Shown piece by piece: positions 62,920 to 63,382 of a stretch of DNA of 64,000 bases. This DNA comes from Schmidtea nova (taxonomy: Eukaryota): the NCBI GenBank assembly GCA_044892505.1, contig CM097883.1, positions 111,352,001 through 111,416,000 on the forward strand, read 5' to 3'. Under the pieces are notes generated by a model, which was given only the letters and a program-made list of their open reading frames with translations, made no database searches and had not been told where the DNA came from. The translations under genes were made by a program, and so were the position numbers. Every line of letters starts with the position of its first letter. Position 1 is the stretch's first letter.

Positions 62920-63382
62920 TATTATTATATAATTTTGACTAATATAAATTACAAAGGAAGAGTTTCGTTGGATAAAGTTTGTAGCAAGCAATTTCAAAGA
63001 AAACCTAAACAATTTATACTTAGATCTGTGAACTATACTATTATATTTTTCAAAGCTGAAAAATGTCGTATAGCGGGAAATACAAAACCTATATATATAC
63101 ATATATGAAAAAACTATTAAATGAAATATATGATATTCAAATTTAAATCATTTAAATCACTGATGATTTAAAAAAAAGATACAATTGAATGATTTAGCAT
63201 TAAAACTTGATGAAAAAGGTATATTTGAACCAGAAATATTTCCTGCTTTGCGATATTTAAAATATAACCCAATGTATGTAAAGATCTTTGCAAGCGAAAA
63301 AATTGTTTTATTAAGTTTCAAAAATCTGAACTATCATATATTTGTAAAAGATCTTATTGATAATTTAAATAATGTGATTTAA
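62920..63382 (+). pseudogene. TATA-binding-protein-like (two-repeat TBP fold) gene, intronless and degenerate
   Basis: Repeat 1: IILTNINYKGRVSLDKV...YTIIFFKAEKCRIAG. Repeat 2: IQLNDLALKLDEKGIFEPEIFPALRYLKYNPMYVKIFASEKIVLL, compared with TBP IRLEGL...[30 protein letters not shown]. Stops and a frameshift lie between the repeats. Confidence 0.7.

What the first reader, a model, noticed from the sequence alone, without database searches (positions are those of the whole stretch)
62920..63382. TBP-like gene immediately downstream of a Polinton packaging ATPase
Seen: an intronless, decayed two-repeat reading frame with FEPEIFPALRY...KIFASEKIVLL and a first repeat ending IIFFKAEKCRIAG, about 460 bp downstream of ATPase relic 2 on the same strand and similarly decayed. 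Known: TBP has two such repeats ([11 protein letters not shown]...[11 protein letters not shown]); TBP-like genes occur in large nucleocytoviruses but are not among the core Polinton genes (pPolB, INT, ATPase, PRO, MCP, penton). Inference: this Polinton lineage may encode its own divergent basal transcription factor. It looks too divergent to be a recent retrocopy of host TBP.
Basis: partly seen in the sequence, partly recalled or inferred. Interest (0 to 1): 0.8.

Follow-up and report, generated by a model that had tools for sequence, protein, structure and literature searches.

The report
Polinton mini-TBP with own promoter box
This is a broken copy of a small TATA-binding-protein gene that virus-like Polinton transposons carry, unbroken, at many other places in this genome; their capsid and packaging genes share a distinct TATA-like box, so the protein likely acts as the element's own switch for those late genes.

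Summary
The window holds a frameshifted relic of a ~155-aa TBP-fold gene. Open-frame relatives are abundant in this genome, inside 15-18 kb Polinton/Maverick elements with terminal inverted repeats, head-to-head with the packaging ATPase (opposite strand in 53 of 53 linked loci). The same-strand layout in the window comes from an 864-bp inversion. The gene is under purifying selection, groups apart from host TBPs, and lies beside Polinton genes in 26 of 33 contigs of 3 kb or more from other sources. It keeps the TFIIB-contact glutamates and three of four intercalating phenylalanines, has lost the N-lobe helices, and has family-wide swaps on the DNA face. A YATAAAC box precedes 81 of 94 capsid, packaging and integrase gene starts but 1 of 51 TBP-like starts, is kept even inside upstream coding sequence, and is absent (0 of 49) from a second, TBP-less Polinton family of the same genome. 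Likely a herpesvirus-style early-to-late switch; binding and expression are untested. This scan reported the same on three other DNAs, and one paper's figure legend labels a TBP in a related virus.

The parts
62929..63105 (+). Relic of the N-terminal (helix-less) repeat of the mini-TBP; no ATG at the expected start
   Evidence: tblastn to open-frame copies 44-49% over residues 1-55; family profile 34.2 bits; sibling sequences
63100..63170 (+). Broken linker and first strand of repeat 2, in a third frame, with stops
   Evidence: weak profile match in the third frame, 6.3 bits
63167..63382 (+). Relic of the C-terminal TBP repeat (EPE stirrup, FP, second Phe), ending in TAA
   Evidence: Pfam PF00352 E 1.1e-4; 50-58% to open-frame copies; family profile 60.6 bits
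62756..62797 (-). 5' end of the packaging ATPase in its native head-to-head position
   Evidence: tblastn 72% to ATPase residues 3-20; colinear with siblings L019, L003, L009
62832..62900 (-). Altered YATAAAC box of the ATPase gene (about 62832-62842), with a (TA)n run at its TATA end (about 62839-62900)
   Evidence: siblings L003, L007, L009, L011, L019 read TTGTTTATA at this place; three of these five go on into a long TA run
61892..62755 (+). 864-bp inverted segment: ATPase codons from about 18 to the end (61893-62460) and the 5' part of the basic core-like ORF (to 62754); an 11-bp word stands inverted at both junctions
   Evidence: blastn to L019 and L003 in reversed orientation, 74-77%
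62449..62457 (+). Remnant of the box for the core-like gene inside the ATPase 3' end, one mismatch from TATAAACAA
   Evidence: sequence against complete elements
61892..63444 (.). Whole relic, about 1.55 kb of one old Polinton copy
   Evidence: limits of blastn similarity to siblings; the next 10 kb hold only separate fragments

Best explanation
The window holds a dead copy of a Polinton-encoded mini TATA-binding protein that, in complete elements, likely binds the element's own YATAAAC box and likely turns on its capsid, packaging and integrase genes. Shown: the gene is a conserved, selected part of a wide Polinton clade; the box precedes those genes at 31 nt or more from the ATG, and does not precede the TBP-like gene. 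Predicted: a TBP saddle with a whole C-lobe and a helix-less N-lobe. Inferred steps: (1) host machinery transcribes the TBP-like gene early, from an ordinary TATA promoter in many lineages; (2) the mini-TBP binds YATAAAC, its changed N-lobe face (Val71 to Asn, Val122 to Arg, Thr124 to Met in yeast numbering) reading the divergent 3' half; (3) its kept Glu186/Glu188 recruit host TFIIB and Pol II; (4) lacking helix H2 it escapes TFIIA, TAF1, Mot1 and Brf control. This parallels the herpesvirus vTBP/TATT switch with one small protein.
For: 149 of 150 scored matches in the genome have no stop inside. ATPase within 1.5 kb in 27 of 29, 20 of 23 and 6 of 19 loci, all 53 on the opposite strand; 0 of 7 host-type TBP loci. 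Complete gene set and 1.0-1.65 kb inverted ends in 4 of 4 elements tested. Polinton hallmark genes in 37 of 74 outside loci, 26 of 33 of those >=3 kb. dN/dS 0.11-0.34, median 0.18, 21 pairs. Model pLDDT 96.5; top PDB hits all TBPs, E about 2e-9; Z 12.7, rmsd 2.8, 145 aligned. Family split from host and canonical TBPs, SH-aLRT 98. In 97 family sequences: F38 98%, F97 98%, F113 100%, P98 88%, N4 96%, E93 93%, E95 97%; swapped positions N6 93%, R44 98%, M46 100%, S68 92%, N111 100%. Box in 81 of 94 late-type starts, 1 of 51 TBP-like starts, 2 of 94 opposite strands, 4 of 94 downstream windows, about 4 expected from shuffles; ATAAAC is the top unprompted 6-mer. Synonymous constraint: ATA-AAC in 7 of 7 penton-like ends (background 0.34 and 0.28), TAT-AAA-CAA in 14 of 14 ATPase YKQ ends. 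TBP-less Polinton family of the same genome: 0 of 49 starts. Only 6 TFIIB-family matches in the genome, so no high-copy element TFIIB by Pfam. Roles of the glutamates and of N-lobe H2: PMC7221094. Polar swaps at matching positions in KSHV ORF24: PMC12529657.
Against: No binding, transcript or start-site data were examined. Wild-type host-type TBP can bind a TATAAAC variant: PDB 1qn3 is titled as the C(-25) AdMLP variant bound to wild-type TBP, and the host has at least four TBP-family genes. The negative control is one family (capsid proteins 86-94% alike) and three distant virophage-like contigs, so gene-box co-occurrence rests on about one independent contrast. 13 of 94 late-type starts lack the box; 4 of 13 starts of the neighbouring DNA-binding-like gene have it (0.7 expected), which blurs a clean early/late split. 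A canonical TATA is seen before only 21 of 51 TBP-like starts (8.5 expected by shuffling, 14 of 51 in downstream windows), and not clearly in this genome's own head-to-head copies. The Phe99 equivalent is missing, so TATA-type kinking at the 3' end is unsure. Starts were assigned by homology and some are wrong. The rows are related, so counts overstate independence.
Confidence: 0.65

Rival explanations
1. The box is a real promoter but is read by host TBP or a host TBP paralogue; the mini-TBP does something else, such as titrating host TFIIB to damp host transcription or defence, or bending DNA at the element's ends.
For: Host-type TBP is crystallised on the C(-25) variant (title of 1qn3); host paralogues exist; the C-lobe with the TFIIB stirrup is the best-kept part; the box also stands before 4 of 13 starts of the neighbouring gene.
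Against: The DNA face carries invariant new residues, not drift; 24 of 84 boxes are CATAAAC, two steps from the canonical TATA; a TBP-less family in the same host lacks the box; the box variant tracks the TBP-like subclade (C in 15 of 18 against 9 of 66).
Confidence: 0.22
2. The mini-TBP needs element-encoded partners (a small viral pre-initiation complex, for example with the Cys-rich acidic ORF next to it) rather than working alone with host TFIIB.
For: Herpesvirus vTBPs need five partners and do not tell TATA from TATT alone in vitro (PMC4893493); most viral TBPs come with their own TFIIB (PMC7221094); a helix-less N-lobe leaves a surface that a partner could cover.
Against: The glutamates for host TFIIB are kept at 93-97%; no high-copy TFIIB-family gene; the Cys-rich ORF was found only in this genome's elements; the other neighbour has a fold like viral DNA-binding proteins, not TFIIB.
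Confidence: 0.1
3. The window sequence is a host TBP pseudogene or cargo of another transposon that landed beside a Polinton relic.
For: The window's layout differs from complete elements.
Against: The inversion explains the layout; the piece groups with element copies, 52% to its nearest, apart from host TBPs; 53 of 53 linked loci share the opposite-strand layout.
Confidence: 0.01
4. The box is not a promoter but an RNA-level signal, such as a poly(A)-like ATAAA for the upstream gene.
For: It often lies near the end of the upstream ORF.
Against: It also precedes the ATPase where no same-strand gene lies upstream; it often lies inside the upstream coding sequence, up to about 100 nt before the next start; the distance to the next ATG has a sharp floor at 31 nt.
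Confidence: 0.03

Closest known systems
Polinton/Maverick elements (adintoviruses; Starrett et al. 2021, PMC8502044: I saw section 3.4, term passages and a term search of its one held supplement)
   Same: pPolB, rve integrase with chromodomain, A32-like ATPase, C5 protease, double-jelly-roll capsid protein, inverted ends, 15-18 kb.
   Different: A conserved mini-TBP and a shared YATAAAC box. The paper's Fig. [quoted passage not shown]
Beta/gammaherpesvirus vTBP (KSHV ORF24, EBV BcRF1) with the TATT late box (PMC12529657: abstract and one results section; PMC4893493: passages)
   Same: Virus-encoded TBP fold, polar swaps at Val122, Val161, Leu205, and a variant TATA box before structural genes.
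   Different: ORF24 is a 752-aa multidomain protein in a six-member complex, keeps all four Phe and, by a section heading of that paper, is predicted not to bind TFIIB; this protein is about 155 aa, lacks the Phe99 equivalent and the N-lobe helices, keeps the TFIIB glutamates, and its box differs at the 3' half (and often the first base). No sign of common descent was tested.
Cellular TBP and paralogues (Pfam PF00352; PMC7221094: passages)
   Same: Saddle fold (Z 12.7), whole C-lobe, Phe116/Phe190/Phe207, Pro191, Asn69, Glu186/Glu188 equivalents.
   Different: N-lobe helices H1 and H2 absent in the model; Asn159, Val71, Val122, Thr124, Val161, Leu205 replaced family-wide; intronless; separate branch in the tree.
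Nucleocytovirus TBP-like proteins (BFVD hits; PMC7221094)
   Same: Viral TBP fold, E from 2.7e-8.
   Different: Those mostly come with a viral TFIIB and have variable stirrup residues (about 40% conserved); here the stirrup is kept and no TFIIB was found. Only 7-24% identity; the one nucleocytovirus-like TBP in my tree (L104) fell on the canonical side.

Membership tests
Polinton/Maverick | Protein-primed DNA polymerase B | tested here: met
   DNA_pol_B_2 E 1e-22 in the element around L031; not in the window relic itself
Polinton/Maverick | rve integrase | tested here: met
   rve E 2.6e-8 plus a chromodomain piece
Polinton/Maverick | A32-like packaging ATPase | tested here: met
   Pox_A32 E 2.4e-6; window relic 45-72% to it
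Polinton/Maverick | Adenovirus-type cysteine protease | tested here: met
   Peptidase_C5 E 8.2e-5, over cut-off
Polinton/Maverick | Double-jelly-roll major capsid protein | tested here: met
   profile-profile match to the PF21738 capsid protein of the second family, probability 97, E 3e-11, 360 columns; no direct Pfam or PDB hit
Polinton/Maverick | Penton (minor capsid protein) | tested here: inconclusive
   conserved 340-380 aa ORF at the usual place, no Pfam hit; the label is recalled, not folded
Polinton/Maverick | Long terminal inverted repeats | tested here: met
   1.0-1.65 kb in 4 of 4 elements tested; three show an AGTAG word at or near the end; the fifth fetched site was cut by a retrotransposon and not tested
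Polinton/Maverick | 6-bp target-site duplication (recalled) | tested here: inconclusive
   ends lie in AT repeats; no clear duplication
TBP family | Saddle fold of two related lobes | tested here: met
   (predicted model)
TBP family | Two complete repeats, each with helices H1 and H2 | tested here: not met
   no helix of 4 or more residues before residue 81 in the model; the L153/L162 subclade seems by sequence to keep part of them
TBP family | Four intercalating Phe and the central Asn pair | tested here: not met
   three Phe and Asn69 kept; no Phe99 equivalent, Asn159 to Ser in 92%
TBP family | Acidic TFIIB stirrup (Glu186, Glu188) | tested here: met
   93% and 97% of 97 sequences
TBP family | Binds a TATA-type box and supports initiation | not testable with these tools
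   only indirect evidence
Herpesvirus-type vTBP system | Variant TATA box restricted to structural genes | tested here: met
   YATAAAC 81 of 94 against 1 of 51; it is a different box from TATT
Herpesvirus-type vTBP system | Large protein with Pol II-binding N-domain and five viral partners | tested here: not met
   145-170 aa single-domain ORFs; no partner set identified
Host TBP retrocopy | Nests within or next to host TBP genes | tested here: not met
   host loci L051-L057 give no element neighbours

The most novel reading that the evidence does not exclude
A wide clade of Polintons runs its own early-to-late programme with one 155-residue protein: the smallest viral TBP, which reads a private YATAAAC box, borrows host TFIIB and Pol II, and has shed the surface by which hosts regulate TBP. 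The box and the protein co-vary across subclades, an orthogonal TBP-promoter pair, and the gene would be the master switch between silent transposon and particle-making virus.
Probability: 0.5. Interest if true: 0.87.

Novelty: new variant of a known kind. Interest (0 to 1): 0.72.

Why it matters
How Polintons time their genes, and whether they make particles at all, is open. A dedicated TBP plus a box on nearly every capsid and packaging gene gives a concrete, testable switch and argues that these elements are programmed viruses. It would be a second, far smaller solution to the herpesvirus vTBP strategy, and a natural minimal TBP that separates TFIIB recruitment from TFIIA/TAF1/Mot1 control. 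The box is also a practical marker for finding gene starts in this clade. The window copy itself is dead and ordinary; its value is as a pointer.

Tried and rejected
Same-strand ATPase-TBP operon: rejected, it is an inversion. By eye I first read a continuation of the core-like ORF left of 61892; blastn and tblastn did not support it. Host retrocopy: rejected. Search for TBP-less Polinton controls in viral contigs: nothing with a single ATPase, five distant hits with an alignment, three of them virophage-like contigs scanned with no box, too remote to weigh much. The one viral-contig hit for the TBP-like profile (L104) is a nucleocytovirus-like contig with a canonical-type TBP. No model of a complex with TFIIB was obtained, so there is no verdict on that contact. 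No reads were examined, so expression and start sites are untested. The careful tree did not finish; the quick tree (45 of 120 family-like proteins drawn at random, 72 rows) gives no root and no origin for the family. The neighbouring gene's model was searched against viral structures only, not the PDB. The Atlas look-up with a stored homologue gave only TBP clusters. The classic paper on TATA variants was not held; I rely on the PDB title only. Target-site duplications were not resolved.

Full report
Observation. The second matches Pfam TBP at E 1.1e-4, just under the cut-off; the first has no TBP match alone. A profile built from 35 natural family members scores them 60.6 and 34.2 bits in the whole window, against at best -1.5 in the reversed window; the middle lies in the third frame with stops.

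Copies in the genome. The window is G000:C2:111352001-111416000 of a 1.25-Gb AT-rich assembly. The DNA finds 43 matches, itself and 42 others at 66-86% identity, an old subfamily. The protein piece finds 150 of 150 scored candidates (of 15,108 first-look candidates), 149 without a stop inside; the Pfam family gives 150 of 150 scored (of 14,003), of which the top seven rows and the last are host-type genes. These are lower bounds, not copy numbers. The ATPase lies within 1.5 kb in 27 of 29, 20 of 23 and 6 of 19 loci of the three searches, always on the opposite strand (53 of 53), and in 0 of 7 host-type loci.

The element. I fetched 40 kb around five open-frame copies; four show the full order pPolB, small exonuclease-like ORF, C5 protease, capsid protein, 130-aa ORF, penton-like ORF, split integrase, basic core-like ORF, A32 ATPase, then head-to-head the TBP-like gene and one to three further ORFs; the fifth is cut by a retrotransposon. 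The labels 'penton-like', 'core-like' and 'exonuclease-like' are recalled and come from no call. The capsid protein matches a double-jelly-roll family by profile (probability 97). All four have 1.0-1.65 kb inverted ends, giving about 15.4-18.2 kb.

Why the window looks different. Against siblings L019 and L003, 61892-62755 is reversed, while 62754-63444 is colinear; the ATPase start sits on the - strand at 62797, facing away from the TBP-like gene, and one 11-bp word stands inverted at both junctions. The (TA)n run lies where five siblings read TTGTTTATA, the ATPase's box. So the same-strand layout is a local inversion of one old copy.

Beyond this genome. 33 family proteins came from the word-indexed search; the profile search returned 59 representatives at E up to 1e-30, and 92 of the 178 proteins held cover the profile nearly end to end. 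Of 74 outside loci (73 metagenome, 1 viral), 37 carry a Polinton hallmark, 26 of the 33 that are 3 kb or longer; the rest are mostly short contigs, and the weakest few look like ordinary TBPs. Gene order varies: upstream of the ATPase on the same strand, after the protease, or divergent. ATPases range down to 36-40% identity, so the clade is wide.

The protein. dN/dS among seven open-frame copies is 0.11-0.34 (median 0.18, 21 pairs; ATPase 0.04-0.09, 10 pairs). The model of a natural copy has pLDDT 96.5 and no helix before residue 81. All 44 PDB matches at E up to 0.001 that were listed are TBPs; the unbiased search gives Z 12.7, rmsd 2.8 over 145 residues, next unrelated row 6.3. A quick tree (72 rows; 45 of 120 family-like proteins sampled; careful search unfinished) puts the family, the window piece included, on one side of a branch with SH-aLRT 98 and host, archaeal-like and other canonical TBPs on the other; it gives no root. 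Mapped on the TBP DNA-contact list in PMC12529657 Table 1 (my mapping by alignment): Asn69, Phe116, Phe190, Pro191, Phe207 are kept at 88-100% of 97 sequences; Val71, Val122, Thr124, Asn159, Leu205 are replaced by near-invariant Asn, Arg, Met, Ser, Asn (92-100%); Val161 is Thr or Ser (97%); Phe99 has no equivalent. The two glutamates that contact TFIIB are kept (93%, 97%), where most viral TBPs vary, and helix H2, the site for TFIIA, TAF1, Mot1 and Brf, is gone (PMC7221094, passages). The genome has only 6 TFIIB-family matches, two loci read as host Brf1 and TFIIB by eye.

The box. From 200 homology-assigned starts, 160 remained after removing near-copies and 158 after dropping two ordinary-TBP rows. 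YATAAAC lies within 120 nt upstream of 81 of 94 ATPase, core-like, integrase, penton-like, 130-aa, capsid, protease and exonuclease-like starts, against 1 of 51 TBP-like starts, 2 of 94 opposite strands, 4 of 94 downstream windows and about 4 by shuffling; ATAAAC is the top 6-mer without prompting (84 of 94 against 11 of 188), and the distance to the ATG never falls below 31 nt. In four elements the 6-kb structural block holds 7-8 sense boxes and 0-1 antisense; seven polymerase stretches hold 2 in all. Where the box lies in the upstream gene it fixes codons: ATA-AAC in 7 of 7 penton-like ends (background 0.34, 0.28) and TAT-AAA-CAA in all 14 of 21 ATPase ends that have YKQ. A second Polinton family in the same genome has the box before 0 of 49 starts; 7 of its 10 sites give no TBP-like hit, and the three hits sit with the ATPase of inserted TBP-type elements. 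The deep subclade L153-L166 prefers CATAAAC (15 of 18 against 9 of 66).

Against. The neighbouring DNA-binding-like gene has the box in 4 of 13 starts; a canonical TATA precedes only 21 of 51 TBP-like starts (8.5 by shuffling) and is not clear in this genome's own copies. The control is one family. Host-type TBP has been crystallised on the C(-25) variant (PDB title), and the host has several TBP paralogues. No binding or RNA data were examined.

Mechanism. Shown: gene, linkage, selection, box. Predicted: fold. Inferred: early expression by host factors, binding of the box, recruitment of host TFIIB and Pol II, escape from N-lobe regulators. That the C-lobe meets the 5' half of a TATA box and the N-lobe the 3' half is my recall; it fits a kept C-lobe with YATA and a changed N-lobe with AACA. 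I put this reading at 0.65, host reading of the box at 0.22.

What is known. Nine full-text searches found no paper that describes a Polinton TBP family or this box; none of the 15 listed holds TATAAAC. PMC8502044 and its preprint label a TBP in figure legends only (supplement term search empty; figures and preprint supplements not seen, and they may bear on novelty). Term searches of the vertebrate Maverick paper, the nematode Polinton preprint and a 2026 PLV preprint gave no TATA or TBP; PMC10675990 mentions TATA-binding proteins in mirusvirus-like elements (passage). The library lacks most subscription papers and Repbase. The working parallel is the herpesvirus vTBP/TATT system (PMC4893493 passages). 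This scan noted the same gene and box in other genomes; those notes are not independent support.

Verdict. A dead copy of a real, conserved Polinton mini-TBP with a matching promoter class: a new variant of the known viral-TBP strategy. Interest 0.72.

Noticed in passing
window 151-1850, 7506-7661, 9591-10346, 46673-48241, 53522-53662: More decayed pieces of the same Polinton group: capsid, 130-aa ORF and penton-like; protease; penton-like and integrase end; ATPase-core-integrase; protease.
   Followed up: partly
window about 18.5-28.9 kb and 32.8-43.3 kb: A duplicated segment at about 14.36 kb spacing, with identical 319-aa intronless ORFs at 24756-25715 and 39120-40079 that look by eye like a seven-helix receptor (not scanned), and two relics of the TBP-like gene's neighbour.
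   Followed up: no
L051, L052/L055, L053/L057, L054/L056: The host has at least four TBP-family genes, one an intronless 204-aa divergent form; two group together on a long branch.
   Followed up: partly
L202-L221: A second Polinton family without the TBP-like gene: PLA2-like domain fused to the integrase, ATPase close to the capsid gene, and TATAAA directly before many start codons (7-10 nt), unlike a Pol II TATA spacing. TBP-type elements are inserted into it at 3 of 10 sites.
   Followed up: partly
L086:967-1467 and homologues: The conserved neighbour of the TBP-like gene folds well (pLDDT 93) and resembles uncharacterised nucleocytovirus proteins (E from 1e-6) and phage and baculovirus DNA-binding proteins (E about 2e-3 to 4e-3); a single-strand DNA-binding role is my inference.
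   Followed up: partly
L094:999-1544 and homologues: A helical ORF with a CxxxCxxC motif and an acidic tail directly after the TBP-like gene in this genome's elements; no Pfam hit; candidate co-activator.
   Followed up: no
L153, L154, L162: A deep subclade whose TBP-like protein seems by sequence to keep part of the N-lobe helices and whose boxes are mostly CATAAAC, suggesting stepwise shrinkage with box change.
   Followed up: partly
L085:8699, L093:8629, L097:8572, L101:8642: An extra sense box inside the core-like gene, about 90 nt before a short frame that starts Met-Gly; Met-Gly ORFs also precede the TBP-like gene in L153 and L162.
   Followed up: no
L106:225-719, L162:7052-7909: Element cargo: a ubiquitin-conjugating enzyme domain and a KilA-N domain.
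   Followed up: no
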